Shown here in pieces: positions 55,298 through 59,350 of a DNA stretch of 64,000 nucleotides. Position numbers and translations under genes: made by a program. Positions within the stretch are counted from its first letter, which is position 1; every line of letters starts with the position of its first letter. The DNA is from Naegleria gruberi (taxonomy: Eukaryota), in the NCBI GenBank assembly GCA_000004985.1, contig GG738850.1, one strand, 5' to 3'. The notes beneath the pieces are model-generated. The model ran no database searches. It was not told the DNA's origin and saw only the letters and a program-made list of their open reading frames with translations.

Positions 55298-55327
55298 AGA
55301 ATTCAAATTCAACAAACTTTGAAAAAA

Positions 55328-55690
55328 ATGGATTCAAATTATCATAACGTTTGCCACAGAGGATGTATGATTGATATTATTGATCGGGAGTGGATGATGG
55401 ATGTACTTCCAAATGATGATATTACTATTATTTTACCAAATGATAATTCATCTAAAAATCCAATTCAAAATACATTGTCTCAACTCACGAATAACCATCC
55501 GAGCCTGGCAACTCATCCTCTCTTTGTTGAAGATGGAGTGGCTATTGCTGATATGAAGGATAATTCAATACTCGGAGATAATCACTTGCAAGGAATTGAT
55601 AGACCACCAAGTGAATTTGTTCATCATGTAAATGAATGGAATGATTTAAATCTTTTCAGTTTACTGGAGAGACAAGACGAAACGGATTAA
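55328..55690 (+). CDS. Hypothetical small protein
   Basis: An ORF immediately downstream of an E2F-like motif. No family was recognised. Confidence 0.3.
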   Translation: MDSNYHNVCHRGCMIDIIDREWMMDVLPNDDITIILPNDNSSKNPIQNTLSQLTNNHPSLATHPLFVEDGVAIADMKDNSILGDNHLQGIDRPPSEFVHHVNEWNDLNLFSLLERQDETD

Positions 55691-55778: not shown

Positions 55779-56264
55779 TTATTGATTGTAGCGACAAAAC
55801 AAATTCTTCTCGGTGGCATAAAGTTTTGTGTACATTTTAGCCATTGAATTGAATCCTCTATCATCATTATTTCTAATTAAATTTCCAGCATCACAATTTA
55901 ATGGTGAATCGGAACCTTCCTTTGGATTAGACATCATTGATACAATAGCCCTACAAACATTTAATAAAGTCCAAACAGGGCTCCACTTATCCTTCAAAAT
56001 ATCCATACATATTTCTCCACTTTCAAAATGTACATTTGGGTGAAAGATTTTAGTAATAAATTCAACTTTTGGTGCAGAAATTGGATATTCTTTCGGAACT
56101 TGAATTTTTAATTCGAAAACACCATCCTCATAACAAGTTCCCTTTGGTCCAATGCATTTTGCATACCACAAATAAATATTATTTTCATCGGGTTGAAGAA
56201 CAAGATCAGCCTGATTGGCTTTTTGGATCTCGTTATATTCCTTCATGATTCGTTTGCTTGCCAT
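55779..56264 (-). CDS. Ubiquitin-conjugating enzyme E2
   Basis: UBC fold with HPNVHFESGEICMDILKDKWSP (HPN...G.IC.DIL, active-site Cys) and the C-terminal WSP...L.S...LL motif. Confidence 0.9.
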   Translation of the reverse strand: MASKRIMKEYNEIQKANQADLVLQPDENNIYLWYAKCIGPKGTCYEDGVFELKIQVPKEYPISAPKVEFITKIFHPNVHFESGEICMDILKDKWSPVWTLLNVCRAIVSMMSNPKEGSDSPLNCDAGNLIRNNDDRGFNSMAKMYTKLYATEKNLFCRYNQ

Positions 56265-56636
56265 TTTTTTTTGATTTTGCTTTCCGATGATGATGTTTCC
56301 ATATCATTCCTCAAATATAAAAATAGCAAGTAGTCTTATTAGCAGAAAACAAGTTGAAAAAAGCATTCTTTGCTTCTTTACTGTTATTAATCAAACTCCT
56401 CATTGAAATACAGTAACTCCCTCAAACACTCATAAGGAAGGAGCCTCAAACAACAATGCTGTGTCCACCACTCGATTTTCCAAGGTTGCAAAAAAATATG
56501 ACGACCACGAATCGACCTTCTCGTGGGCGGAAGAAGATTCCAAGGTATGTGCTCGGGCATTTATTAATTTTTTCATCTTCATTATCTATTGTGTGATGAT
56601 ATCATTCTGTATTATTAAAATAGTGCATCCTATTAT

Positions 56637-58179
56637 TTGGGCTATGTTGAAGATGATGAATCAATAGAGTCAATTATGCAAAAGTTCGACGAATTGGAAA
56701 AATTAAAATCATCAAATCTTTCGGAATGTGCTGCTTCTTCATCGTCATCTAAAAGTATGGTGAATGGAAAAGGGAAAGAACCAGCAGAAACAACATTGGA
56801 TGGAGGAGCAATTACACCACTTGAAGAAGATTCCTATCTCAATGAAGAATTGCAAGAGGAATTGTTTAAAAGAACTTCACATCATTCCATTCAATCAAAT
56901 ATTTACTCAGAAATTATGTCAAACTATAATACTGAACAAGGTGAATTGGATGAGATGGATGATGGTGATGGACAGGAGGCTTCTGATTATTCTTCTGATG
57001 AGGATTATGTTGATAATTTTCAAGATGGAGAATCTGATGGATCAACTGAGGAGAATTTGAATATTTGTGTGAGTGACAGTGAAATTGTCAATGAGGAATC
57101 CTTTGACGAAGAAGAAGAGGAGGAAATCATTGATGATGAAGAATCTAGTAGAGCTAAAAAGAAGAGAAAATCCAATCAGACCAATGGAAGGAAACGAAAC
57201 ACTCAGAAAAAGGGTGATAATACTATCAAGGATTTAGTCACACTCGATCCAAATATGAACTTTTTGAATTCATTTGAAGGAAATTCGACGACCAACTCAA
57301 AGAAATCCAGAGCTACCAGCAATATAGAAATTGTAAATATTCCAACAGCAGAGAAAATACTCAATTCCTGGGCTAAACATATACAAAGAGTAACACCAAA
57401 GGAATGTAAAAAATATAAGGCATACAGTGAATGTCAAACAATTGATTTGACCAATTTTGAAGAAGATTTATCAGGAAAATTAATGTTTAATAGAACTAAC
57501 TCAAAGAAATCATCAACCTTTGTATCAAGTGTATACACATTCGATACTGAAGAGGATGTAATCATAACGAACCGAGTTTTAGATTATAATTTTAAATCGA
57601 TATGTAAAAATCAGCCGTTTGAGGGGATTTTAATTGATCCACCCTATCACTCAATACAAGTGAAAGATCTGGTATGTAATCTCAGTAATCTCAACATTGT
57701 AATCTTAACAATTGTAATTTCGGATAATTAAGAAAAAATTACCACTCGATAAGAAATGGTTCATAGAGAGAGGTTACTGTTTTGTATGGATTGAAAAGGA
57801 ATTTACAGTTGAAGTTGTTAAAATAATGAAAGGATTTGATTTTGAATATGTAGATAGTTTAACTTGGGTTAAAGAAACCATTCATCAACATTCCTCAACA
57901 CTCCCATCTCAATTATTTCCCAGAGGCAAGTTGAATCTATTCATCTTTAGAAAGATGAATGATCTCACTAAAACCATGCACATTAAACACCAGAGAAATG
58001 CAGATGTGGTTCTTGATTTTGAAAAGGACAACCCACGACACAGACCACCAGTCATATTTCACATGATTGAAACTCTATTATCATCTTCTGATAGATTTTT
58101 GGAATTGTGGGGAGAAGGTTGTTATCAACATTGTAAATTCAAAACATCCTCTAAATGGACTATCATAAAGGAAGAATAG
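56637..58179 (+). CDS. MT-A70-family (METTL4/Ime4-like) adenine methyltransferase-like protein
   Basis: Exons 56637..57671 and 57733..58179, with a 61-nt intron (gtatgt...aattaag). It has an acidic N-terminal half. The catalytic-motif region is LIDPPYHSIQVKDL|KKLPLDKKWFIERGYCFVWIEKEF...KIMKGFDFEYVDSLTWVKE. It matches MT-A70 DPPW....LP...l.d.g.lFlWv....l..WGf....e.vWvK, with DPPY in place of DPPW. Confidence 0.65.
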
Positions 58180-58597
58180 AATATAGATATAGATTCATAT
58201 TGTAACAAAGGGAGTTGTTTTTGAACATTCCAGTGTTGCATCTTTAATTGATAAACATGTAAAGTTTGTCTAGGTTTGACTCCGGAAGAATAGGATATCA
58301 TACATTTTTAACTCACGCACTTTTTCGTTTTGTCATTTATCAGCATTACTCCTCAAACCACACTGCCATTTTCAATTCTCACCTCCAATACCGTAGTAAA
58401 CGAATCATTACGAAAATCGAGTCATCATTTTCAGAAAAAAAAACAAGAAGAACATCAACTGGTGGCACACACTAAAGCTGCTGCACTTGCAAAAAACATC
58501 TACAAAGGCTTTCAACAAGTCGCACTCGAATCTTCCGCTTCTTTAGAAAACAACACAAAACCTTCACATTCAAATATTATTTGAAAACAATATCGAT

Positions 58598-59350
58598 ATG
58601 AAAAAGTATACAGTTTCAGCATCACTGAGTAGAGAAGATGAAAAGGATTTCTTTACTACTAAGAAAGTCAATTCAACCACTGATGATTTTCCAGAGTCAA
58701 CTACAACATCATCAATTTATAATAACAAACAGAGGAGAGGAATTGTTCATCGATCACAAACTCAATTACAGGCCAACAAGCAAGTACAAATAATAGAGGA
58801 ATTAAAAGAAGAAGAAGAAGAACCAGCAGAAGAAGAAACTGTACAGAACAAACAAACTACAAGACCAATAGGTATTAAAACAACAACTATAATAGAACCT
58901 TCATCTGTCAATGATAGTGCAGAGAATAGTATTTCAGATGCGAGCGTTGTTTCCTCAGTTGCTGCTAGCAGTTTATCATCTAACACATCTTCATCTGTTG
59001 CCTCATCTGTGGAATCAAATCCAAGTTCTTCACCAATTATTAAAAAGAAAAAATTCACATTTGGAGGATTAATCAAGAGAAAACAAAATGCTGATAGTGA
59101 TGCATCTAGTCCAAATGCCAATGGTTCAGCCTCTCCTAACCTCAATGATTCCCCTAATTCTACATCTACCACTAATTTTGAATCCAATTCCCTTCCAAAA
59201 CGACCTCAAGTCATCAGTGTAAATGATGGCAGTGATTTTAGGAAAAAGTTACAAGATAGAAAGAGAAATGCAGGTGGAACTGGTATGAAAATTGTCAAAC
59301 AAAATGATCAACTTATCGTATCTCAAAACAATTCAACTCTAGAAGAATAA
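58598..59350 (+). CDS. Hypothetical Ser/Thr-rich protein
   Basis: A 250-aa ORF of low complexity (SS/T/N-rich). Weak support. Confidence 0.3.
   Translation: MKKYTVSASLSREDEKDFFTTKKVNSTTDDFPESTTTSSIYNNKQRRGIVHRSQTQLQANKQVQIIEELKEEEEEPAEEETVQNKQTTRPIGIKTTTIIEPSSVNDSAENSISDASVVSSVAASSLSSNTSSSVASSVESNPSSSPIIKKKKFTFGGLIKRKQNADSDASSPNANGSASPNLNDSPNSTSTTNFESNSLPKRPQVISVNDGSDFRKKLQDRKRNAGGTGMKIVKQNDQLIVSQNNSTLEE

What the first reader, a model, noticed from the sequence alone, without database searches (positions are those of the whole stretch)
56637..58179. MT-A70 family member with DPPY catalytic motif and long acidic N-terminus
The spliced product carries the MT-A70 signature region, but DPPY replaces the DPPW of METTL3/METTL4/Ime4, and it is preceded by a roughly 330-aa acidic, low-complexity N-terminal half. 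MT-A70 enzymes in protists have been linked to RNA m6A or DNA 6mA. The motif variant and the domain context may mark a distinct subfamily.
Basis: partly seen in the sequence, partly recalled or inferred. Interest (0 to 1): 0.5.

Follow-up and report, generated by a model that had tools for sequence, protein, structure and literature searches.

The report
Naegleria partner subunit of DNA-adenine methylase
This is the Naegleria gruberi copy of AMT6/7 (MTA9), the already-described helper subunit, most likely non-catalytic, of the AMT1 enzyme that puts methyl groups on adenines in DNA; the gene is ordinary for its family, but the public gene model for it is wrong.

Summary
The window is Naegleria gruberi. 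The same phase-0 intron sits between ..DL|KKLPLD.. in two other Naegleria genomes. The full model is 56456-56544, 56624-57671 and 57733-58179 (527 aa).

The protein is not a new subfamily. It belongs to the known AMT6/7 (MTA9) clade. A family profile scores 162 bits on Tetrahymena MTA9/AMT7, 105 on MTA1 and 59 on METTL3/14. Profiles built without Naegleria give 273 bits (AMT6/7) against 44-48 (AMT1).

The MTA9 residues that wedge into DNA (R366, H379-Q380-R381) are conserved here as R452 and H465-Q466-R467. HQR is kept in 194 of 196 relatives.

DPPY is a lineage variant of a motif that drifts freely in this family (DPPL 84, DPPW 23, DPPF 13, DPPY 6). Six of seven SAM-contacting side chains of MTA1 are replaced, and the gate loop after DPPY is deleted. 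The protein is therefore most likely non-catalytic.

The "low-complexity" N-terminal half carries family-conserved motifs.

One useful by-product: the public model XP_002681350.1 skips the last exon and fuses to the next gene. This probably explains why a 2025 survey lists AMT6/7 as absent from N. gruberi.

The parts
56456..56544 (+). Exon 1. The public model starts at ATG 56456. The second in-frame ATG at 56498 gives MTTTNRPSRG.., which matches the N. lovaniensis start better.
   Evidence: Exon 1 is shared with public model P0001. It is homologous to the N. lovaniensis N-terminus MSSRPSRS..KKVPSS.
56545..56623 (+). Intron 1: 79 nt, GTATGT...TAG, phase 2. It is specific to N. gruberi.
   Evidence: N. 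lovaniensis and L002 have no intron here.
56624..57671 (+). Exon 2. It encodes the N-terminal half and the start of the MT-A70 domain up to ..DPPYHSIQVKDL.
56631..56705 (+). Conserved N-terminal helix motif YYLGYVEDDESIESIMQKFDELEKL (residues 33-57).
   Evidence: G36, Y37, E42, I47, M48, K50 and F51 are at least 90% conserved in A1. AF2 predicts a helix at 44-67 with pLDDT about 80.
56856..56894 (+). Second conserved motif EELFKRTSHHSIQ (residues 108-120).
   Evidence: T114 is invariant; F111 and S115 are at least 90% conserved. AF2 predicts a helix at 104-134.
56931..57149 (+). Acidic disordered tract (residues 133-205).
   Evidence: Residues 130-202 are 44% D/E with no K/R. pLDDT is below 50.
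57150..57212 (+). Basic patch RAKKKRKSNQTNGRKRNTQKK (residues 206-226). I infer it is a nuclear-localisation signal.
   Evidence: A K/R-rich patch sits at the same place in relatives. The function is inferred only.
57333..57386 (+). Motif VNIPTAEKILNSWAKHIQ (residues 267-284), the family 'IPxxPIPRSW' motif. It probably corresponds to the MTA9 N-terminal loop, which crosses to the MTA1 domain.
   Evidence: P270 and W279 are at least 90% conserved. The profile aligns this region to Tetrahymena MTA9 within residues 32-212. The N-terminal loop is described in PMC9852454. The correspondence is inferred.
57636..57647 (+). Motif IV, DPPY (residues 368-371).
   Evidence: It is conserved as DPPY in all Naegleria orthologues.
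57672..57732 (+). Intron 2: 61 nt, GTATGT...AAG, phase 0.
   Evidence: The position is conserved in three Naegleria genomes.
57733..58179 (+). Exon 3. It encodes the rest of the MT-A70 domain and the TAG stop. The public model omits it.
   Evidence: It is 71% identical to N. lovaniensis.
57943..57954 (+). IFRK (residues 450-453). R452 is equivalent to the DNA-contacting R366 of Tetrahymena MTA9.
   Evidence: FR occurs in 156 of 198 family members.
57988..57996 (+). H465-Q466-R467, the beta5/beta6-loop 'HQR' DNA wedge. It is equivalent to MTA9 H379-Q380-R381.
   Evidence: It is invariant in A1 and present in 194 of 196 family members. Its role is shown in the DNA-bound MTA1c cryo-EM structure (PMC12485025).
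58066..58080 (+). IETLL (residues 491-495), a family-invariant helix motif.

Best explanation
The gene encodes the Naegleria gruberi orthologue of AMT6/7 (MTA9). This is the MT-A70 pseudo-enzyme that pairs with the catalytic subunit AMT1 (MTA1) to write symmetric N6-methyladenine at ApT sites in nuclear DNA.

By analogy with the solved Tetrahymena complex, its MT-A70 domain packs antiparallel against AMT1. Its beta5/beta6 loop (H465-Q466-R467, with R452) lies on the DNA. The glutamine wedges into the duplex opposite the target adenine, the histidine stacks on the displaced thymine, and the arginine holds the backbone. AMT1 alone binds SAM and transfers the methyl group.

DPPY is a retained relic or structural turn of motif IV, like EPPL in METTL14. 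It is not an active site.

The N-terminal half consists of two conserved helices, an acidic linker, a basic probable NLS and an IPxxxxxxxSW loop. It is the standard non-ciliate AMT6/7 N-terminus, lengthened in Naegleria. It presumably mediates nuclear import and contacts within the complex.

Shown here: the gene structure, the family placement, and which residues are conserved or lost. Inferred: heterodimer formation, DNA wedging, lack of catalysis, and the NLS.
For: Organism: P0001 is 100% identical and comes from N. gruberi.

Family placement:
- The single sequence hits PDB MTA9 best (E=1.6e-10), then MTA1 (4.4e-5) and METTL3 (0.15).
- The family profile A1 scores MTA9/AMT7 at 2.6e-46 (162 bits), MTA1 at 3.8e-29 (105 bits), METTL14/METTL3 at about 2e-15 (59 bits) and a METTL4-like chain at 7e-4.
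- Profiles built without any Naegleria sequence give 273 bits on AMT6/7 for the full protein and 158 bits for the C-domain. The AMT1 profile gives 44 bits for the full protein and 48 for the C-domain.

Fold: the AF2 model has pLDDT about 90 over residues 340-527. Foldseek matches MTA1, METTL3 and MTA9 at about 1e-11.

DNA-contact residues: MTA9 R366, H379, Q380 and R381 (PMC12485025) align to R452 and H465-Q466-R467. HQR is present in 194 of 196 relatives.

Motif IV drifts across the family: DPPL 84, DPPW 23, DPPF 13, NPPW 9, SPPW 9, DPPY 6.

SAM contacts: MTA1 D182, S332, R357, N360, N370 and E371 (PMC9852454) map to R, R, E, K, E and E in N. gruberi. E371 is not kept in the other Naegleria species. 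Only D209 (D368 here) is retained.

Gate loop 1, which in MTA1 holds the flipped adenine (L214, R221, V223, I225, Y227), is deleted. It is 17 aa shorter than in AMT1. The spacing from motif IV to W398 is 26 residues, against a family mode of 33-34.

Context: the literature reports AMT1 and ApT 6mA on about 644 genes in N. gruberi, and co-occurrence of AMT1 with AMT6/7 across eukaryotes (PMC12695648).
Against: Motif IV is a fully canonical [DNSH]PP[YFW] motif. It is conserved as DPPY, with the preceding strand PFEGILIDPPY, in all three Naegleria orthologues. That shows some constraint at the motif.

The mapping of the C-terminal SAM contacts crosses a Naegleria-specific insertion (GCYQHC), so N360 and N370 are mapped with less certainty.

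I did not retrieve the N. gruberi AMT1 sequence myself, and I did not model the heterodimer. No expression or biochemical data were examined.

Foldseek does not separate MTA9 from MTA1 or METTL3.
Confidence: 0.85

Rival explanations
1. The Naegleria AMT6/7 protein is itself catalytically active and uses DPPY. This would give either a heterodimer with two active sites or an independent adenine methyltransferase acting on DNA 6mA or RNA m6A.
For: DPPY fits the catalytic consensus [DNSH]PP[YFW] (PMC7145601). It is conserved in all Naegleria orthologues. About 29% of family members keep a canonical motif. Naegleria lacks METTL3, METTL14 and METTL4 according to Supp Table 1 of PMC12695648, so no other RNA m6A writer is listed.
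Against: Six of the seven SAM-contacting side chains of MTA1 are replaced, including a charge reversal R357->E/E/D in all three Naegleria species. The gate loop that forms the adenine pocket is deleted. The most common family state is the non-canonical DPPL. In Tetrahymena, mutating the equivalent MTA9 motif has no effect and no SAM is bound (PMC9852454).
Confidence: 0.07
2. The public model is right. Exon 3 is skipped and the locus makes a 646-aa fusion protein (XP_002681350.1) that lacks most of the MT-A70 domain. Under this reading the MT-A70 similarity in 57733-58179 is a decaying remnant.
For: The public annotation P0001 uses donor 57672 and acceptor 58546. No RNA-seq was examined here.
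Against: Exon 3 is an intact ORF, 71% identical to N. lovaniensis, and it ends in a stop at the family's usual C-terminus. It carries the invariant HQR and IETLL motifs. The short intron is conserved in position in three species. N. lovaniensis annotates two separate genes in the same synteny. An 875-nt intron would be far longer than the 61-152-nt introns seen at this locus.
Confidence: 0.03
3. It represents a separate, previously unrecognised MT-A70 subfamily.
For: Its identity to any characterised member is low, 15-21% to PDB chains over the Foldseek alignments. It has a Naegleria-specific deletion after motif IV, an insertion before the domain and a C-terminal insertion.
Against: It scores 273 bits on an AMT6/7 profile built without Naegleria, and the match extends over the N-terminal half. 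It shares all family-invariant residues. The clade profile matches MTA9/AMT7 at 2.6e-46.
Confidence: 0.03

Closest known systems
Tetrahymena thermophila MTA9 / AMT7, and the paralogue MTA9-B / AMT6 (PDB 7yi8_A, 9o6k_A, 8xyl_B, 9u9e)
   Same: It has the MT-A70 fold. It is the best sequence and profile match. The beta5/beta6 loop R..HQR DNA-wedge residues are identical. The IETLL helix is shared. The SAM-pocket residues are not conserved.
   Different: Tetrahymena has an eroded motif IV (NALW, or IDNL in MTA9-B), whereas Naegleria keeps DPPY. Tetrahymena MTA9 lacks a detectable counterpart of the N-terminal GYVEDxE..MKKFEELE and LFKRTS motifs, since profile positions 1-140 are unaligned. It also has a roughly 90-aa insertion inside the domain that Naegleria lacks. 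Naegleria has a shortened loop after motif IV.
Mta9 of early-diverging fungi (for example Mucor lusitanicus P0016 and Rhizopus microsporus P0034; the MTA1c complex described in PMC11258239 and PMC12019607)
   Same: The full-length architecture is the same: N-terminal helix motif, LFKRTS motif, acidic then basic tract, IPxxPIPRSW motif and MT-A70 domain with HQR. Identity is 25-33% over up to 97% of the length. The literature describes it as the non-active partner of Mta1.
   Different: The fungal proteins carry DPPL or DPPF and an 11-aa loop after the motif. They are about 90 aa shorter. The Naegleria protein has an expanded acidic tract and a roughly 50-aa insert before the domain.
Human METTL14, the non-catalytic partner of METTL3
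   Same: The logic is the same: an MT-A70 pseudo-enzyme that keeps a PP-containing motif IV (EPPL), cannot bind SAM and supplies the nucleic-acid-binding surface in a heterodimer (PMC9852454).
   Different: It belongs to a different clade (59 bits against 162 bits). Its substrate is RNA. It has no HQR loop and different N- and C-terminal extensions.
AMT1 / MTA1, the catalytic subunit
   Same: It has the MT-A70 fold and a DPP-aromatic motif IV.
   Different: AMT1 is highly conserved and has DPPW followed by the QLxxxxPTRGVAIxY gate loop, GQSQKPEE and FGRxNNLR..GNEL. None of these is present here. The AMT1 profile scores only 44-48 bits.

Membership tests
MT-A70 superfamily (Pfam PF05063) | Significant match to the MT-A70 profile, and the Rossmann-like alpha/beta fold. 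| tested here: met
   The Pfam score is 35.5 bits against a cut-off of 23.9, E=1.2e-8. The AF2 domain has pLDDT about 90. Foldseek matches MTA1, METTL3 and MTA9 at about 1e-11 with probability 1.00.
AMT6/7 (MTA9) clade | Closer to AMT6/7 than to AMT1, AMT2/5, METTL3, METTL14 or METTL4. | tested here: met
   Profile against PDB: MTA9/AMT7 162 bits, MTA1 105, METTL3/14 59, METTL4-like 22. Leave-Naegleria-out profiles: 273 bits (158 for the C-domain) against 44-48 for AMT1. No full maximum-likelihood tree was built, and AMT2/5 was not sampled separately.
AMT6/7 (MTA9) clade | The beta5/beta6 loop DNA-contact residues (MTA9 R366, H379, Q380, R381). | tested here: met
   R452 and H465-Q466-R467 align to them. 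HQR is found in 194 of 196 family members and is absent from AMT1.
AMT6/7 (MTA9) clade | Non-catalytic: no SAM binding, and motif IV eroded in the ciliate type members. | tested here: inconclusive
   Motif IV is not eroded (DPPY). However, six of seven SAM-contact side chains are replaced and gate loop 1 is deleted. Actual SAM binding cannot be tested in silico here.
AMT6/7 (MTA9) clade | Co-occurs with AMT1 in the same genome, and the genome carries ApT 6mA. | not tested
   This is taken from the literature. Supp Table 1 of PMC12695648 lists N. gruberi AMT1=1, and 6mA is reported on about 644 genes. I did not retrieve AMT1 myself. None lies in the window.
AMT6/7 (MTA9) clade | Physical heterodimer with AMT1, within a complex that contains p1 (and p2 in some lineages). 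| not testable with these tools
   This needs co-purification or a complex structure prediction.
AMT1 / MTA1 catalytic clade | DPPW plus the conserved gate loop, GQSQKP, and the FGR..NN...GNE SAM-binding residues. | tested here: not met
   The alignment shows these residues are absent. The AMT1 profile scores 44-48 bits.
METTL3 / METTL14 / METTL4 | Best match to these clades, with accessory CCCH or RGG domains. | tested here: not met
   The single sequence gives METTL3 E=0.15, and METTL14 and METTL4 are not found. No CCCH or other Pfam domain is present.

The most novel reading that the evidence does not exclude
In Naegleria, and perhaps in the roughly 29% of AMT6/7 members that keep a canonical [DNS]PP[YFW] motif, the 'dead' partner is not dead. 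It would retain adenine-methyltransferase activity, so AMT1-AMT6/7 would be a two-headed enzyme, or AMT6/7 would moonlight as the missing RNA m6A writer in a lineage that lacks METTL3/14.
Probability: 0.06. Interest if true: 0.55.

Novelty: new member of a known kind. Interest (0 to 1): 0.25.

Why it matters
The biology is modest. The result confirms that Naegleria, a deep-branching heterolobosean, has the AMT6/7 partner of AMT1. That fits the published view that this DNA 6mA machinery dates to the last eukaryotic common ancestor.

Two small practical points follow. First, the public N. gruberi model (XP_002681350.1 / NAEGRDRAFT_46356 / D2V3A9) is a chimera that hides the MT-A70 domain. Proteome-based surveys therefore score AMT6/7 as absent from this species. 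Second, across the family the DNA-wedging HQR loop is essentially invariant while motif IV drifts. This shows which surface selection acts on in this pseudo-enzyme.

Tried and rejected
1. I looked for a second MT-A70 gene or partner in the 64-kb window by tblastn with AMT1 and AMT6/7 proteins. Only this locus was hit. The neighbours are Apc13, an E2 ubiquitin-conjugating enzyme and an unannotated Ser-rich protein.

2. I tried to recover N. gruberi AMT1 by searching with a Tetrahymena MTA1 fragment. The 120 listed hits were mostly metagenomic fragments with no named Naegleria entry. I used them only as an AMT1 reference set.

3. Foldseek against the PDB confirmed the fold, but it did not discriminate between MTA1, METTL3, MTA9 and METTL14.

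4. I tried to read the published MT-A70 tree to see where the re-annotated N. gruberi sequences fall. The stored tree string is truncated, and the subset tree has no Naegleria.

5. A literature search for the two N. gruberi accessions in that tree found nothing.

6. The first MAFFT run timed out. I repeated it with a faster mode.

7. I considered and rejected two ideas: that the TTG at 56637 is the start codon, and that the N-terminus is pure low complexity.

Full report
**Identity of the window and the gene model**

So the window is N. gruberi nuclear DNA, with 33.5% G+C.

That segment is 61 nt, begins GTATGT and ends AAG.

No RNA-seq was available, so I tested the intron by comparison.
- The N. 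lovaniensis orthologue (P0002, 517 aa) maps onto the window as exactly two HSPs, 56622-57671 and 57733-58173.
- In the N. lovaniensis genome (L001) and in a third Naegleria contig (L002), the coding sequence is interrupted at the same codon boundary, ..DL|KKLPLDK...
- Those introns are 94 and 152 nt. Both begin GTAAGT and end AAG. Their sequences are unrelated, while the flanking exons are conserved.

This is strong evidence that the intron is real.

The family-conserved motif YYLGYVEDD lies upstream of the first in-frame ATG of the long ORF. A short 5' exon (ATG 56456 or 56498, ending at 56544) joins through a 79-nt GTATGT..TAG intron (56545-56623). It gives an N-terminus, MTTTNRPSRGRKKIPS|ASYYLGYVEDD, that matches the N. 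lovaniensis N-terminus.

The full model is 56456-56544, 56624-57671 and 57733-58179, encoding 527 aa.

**The public model is a chimera**

The public model is XP_002681350.1 / EFC48606.1 / NAEGRDRAFT_46356 / D2V3A9 (646 aa). It shares exons 1 and 2 and the donor at 57672, but splices to an acceptor at 58546. That 875-nt "intron" skips exon 3 and its stop codon and reads into the next gene at 58547-59350. The model has no precomputed Pfam domain.

In N. lovaniensis the same synteny holds: Apc13, E2 ubiquitin-conjugating enzyme on the minus strand, MT-A70, an unknown gene, then a Ras/Roc gene. There the MT-A70 gene and its downstream neighbour are separate genes.

A 2025 survey based on the NCBI proteome lists N. 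gruberi as AMT1=1, AMT6/7=0, AMT2/5=1 (PMC12695648, Supp Table 1). The two NCBI N. gruberi accessions in its tree are not this gene. The same tree also holds three re-annotated N. gruberi entries and three N. fowleri entries. So the authors probably recovered the gene in their own annotation. I could not verify this, because the stored tree is truncated.

**Family placement**

- Pfam MT-A70 matches residues 370-506 above its gathering threshold (35.5 against 23.9 bits).
- Against PDB sequences, the single protein hits Tetrahymena MTA9 best (1.6e-10), then MTA9-B, then MTA1 (4.4e-5), then METTL3 (0.15).
- Its database relatives come from Mucoromycota, Zoopagomycota, chytrids, Planoprotostelium, Chlamydomonas eustigma and various protist transcriptomes. 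This is the known distribution of the AMT1/AMT6/7 system.
- A profile of 24 relatives (A1) scores MTA9/AMT7 at 2.6e-46 (162 bits), MTA1 at 3.8e-29 (105 bits), METTL14 and METTL3 at about 2e-15 (59 bits) and a METTL4-like chain at 7e-4.
- To avoid circularity I built profiles without any Naegleria sequence. The N. gruberi protein then scores 273 bits on AMT6/7 (158 for the C-terminal domain alone). On the AMT1 profile the C-terminal domain scores 48 bits and the full protein 44.
- An AlphaFold2 model is confident for residues 340-527 (pLDDT about 90). Foldseek matches all MT-A70 structures at about 1e-11 without separating the clades.

The protein is therefore the N. gruberi AMT6/7 (MTA9) orthologue, not a new subfamily.

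**What the conserved residues say about mechanism**

In the cryo-EM structure of DNA-bound Tetrahymena MTA1c, the beta5/beta6 loop of MTA9 contacts the substrate. H379 stacks on the displaced thymine. Q380 wedges into the duplex and anchors the methylated adenine of the complementary strand. R381 and R366 hold the backbone (PMC12485025).

Counting along the profile alignment of MTA9, these residues align to H465-Q466-R467 and R452 of the Naegleria protein. H465, Q466 and R467 are invariant in A1. In a census of about 200 family members from a 1.84-billion-protein library, HQR occurs in 194 of 196. AMT1 has no HQR at this position.

Motif IV behaves very differently in the same census:

| Motif IV | Count |
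|---|---|
| DPPL | 84 |
| DPPW | 23 |
| DPPF | 13 |
| NPPW | 9 |
| SPPW | 9 |
| DPPY | 6 (the Naegleria sequences plus two unnamed proteins) |
| eroded forms | many |

Tetrahymena has NALW, and mutating it has no effect (PMC9852454).

DPPY is itself a canonical [DNSH]PP[YFW] motif (PMC7145601), but the rest of the active site is gone. MTA1's SAM contacts D182, S332, R357, N360, N370 and E371 map to R347, R481, E507, K516, E526 and E527. The other two Naegleria orthologues do not keep an acidic residue at the E371 position. R357 is charge-reversed in all three.

Gate loop 1 follows DPPW in MTA1 and forms the pocket for the flipped adenine (L214, R221, V223, I225, Y227). It is deleted here. The protein is 17 residues shorter than AMT1 at this point. 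It has 26 residues between motif IV and W398, against a family mode of 33-34.

I therefore infer a non-catalytic, DNA-positioning role, like MTA9 and METTL14. The retained DPPY would be a structural relic. A caveat is that the mapping of N360 and N370 crosses a Naegleria-specific insertion.

**The N-terminal half**

It is acidic overall (pI 4.6). Residues 130-202 are 44% D/E with no K/R, and AlphaFold2 predicts most of it as disordered. It nevertheless contains the family's standard elements:
- GYVEDxExxExIMxKFxELE (residues 33-57, predicted helix, pLDDT about 80);
- LFKRTSxxxx (residues 108-120, predicted helix);
- a basic KKKRK patch (residues 206-226);
- an IPxxxxxxxSW motif (residues 267-284).

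All four are shared with fungal, amoebozoan and algal AMT6/7, and together they add about 115 bits to the profile score.

Tetrahymena MTA9 does not detectably share the first two motifs. The IP...SW motif probably corresponds to the MTA9 N-terminal loop that crosses to the MTA1 domain (PMC9852454). The basic patch is a plausible NLS. Both assignments are inferences.

The Naegleria protein is about 90 aa longer than typical relatives. The extra length comes from an expanded acidic tract and a roughly 50-aa insert before the domain.

**Partner and context**

No other MT-A70 gene lies in the window, and the neighbours are unrelated genes.

The literature reports one AMT1 in N. gruberi. It also reports ApT 6mA on about 644 genes (3%) that coincide with the strongest H3K4me3, and a p1 subunit without a PHD domain (PMC12695648). 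I did not retrieve AMT1 myself.

**Verdict**

The interpretation as a distinct subfamily is not supported. This is a new, mis-annotated member of the known AMT6/7 (MTA9) family.

Interest is low to moderate. The residual novel possibility is that the intact DPPY reflects retained catalysis. It is not excluded, but it is unlikely (about 6%).

Noticed in passing
window 56456-59350: The public N. gruberi model XP_002681350.1 / NAEGRDRAFT_46356 / D2V3A9 (646 aa) is a chimera. It uses donor 57672 but acceptor 58546, skips exon 3 (57733-58179) and fuses to the downstream gene. A published survey table accordingly lists AMT6/7 as absent from N. gruberi.
   Followed up: yes
window 56545-56623: The 79-nt phase-2 intron in the 5' end of the gene is specific to N. 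gruberi. N. lovaniensis (L001) and a third Naegleria contig (L002) have an uninterrupted N-terminal exon.
   Followed up: partly
window 58598-59350 (+): The downstream gene encodes a 250-aa Ser/Asn/Thr-rich protein with no Pfam match. N. lovaniensis has a separate 301-aa gene, also without a Pfam hit, in the same position. I did not check whether the two are homologous.
   Followed up: no
window 55319-55690 (+) and 55779-56264 (-): The upstream neighbours are an Apc13 (anaphase-promoting complex subunit 13) gene and a single-exon E2 ubiquitin-conjugating enzyme. The gene order Apc13 / E2 / MT-A70 is conserved in N. lovaniensis and in the L002 contig.
   Followed up: partly
P0018: A protein annotated as Zophobas morio (beetle) LOC135144525 falls inside the AMT6/7 family among Mucorales sequences. 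It probably reflects fungal contamination of that insect assembly.
   Followed up: no
P0029, P0038, P0054-P0057, P0062-P0064, P0067: Many Coemansia and Smittium AMT6/7 models carry additional cytidine-deaminase, lipase or peptidyl-tRNA-hydrolase domains. These are probably merged neighbouring genes rather than true fusions.
   Followed up: no
P0010, P0069 and others: Some AMT6/7 members, such as the Planoprotostelium fungivorum protein, keep both DPPW and the upstream D-I residues that contact the SAM adenine in METTL3 and MTA1. They would be better candidates than Naegleria for a still-active AMT6/7.
   Followed up: partly
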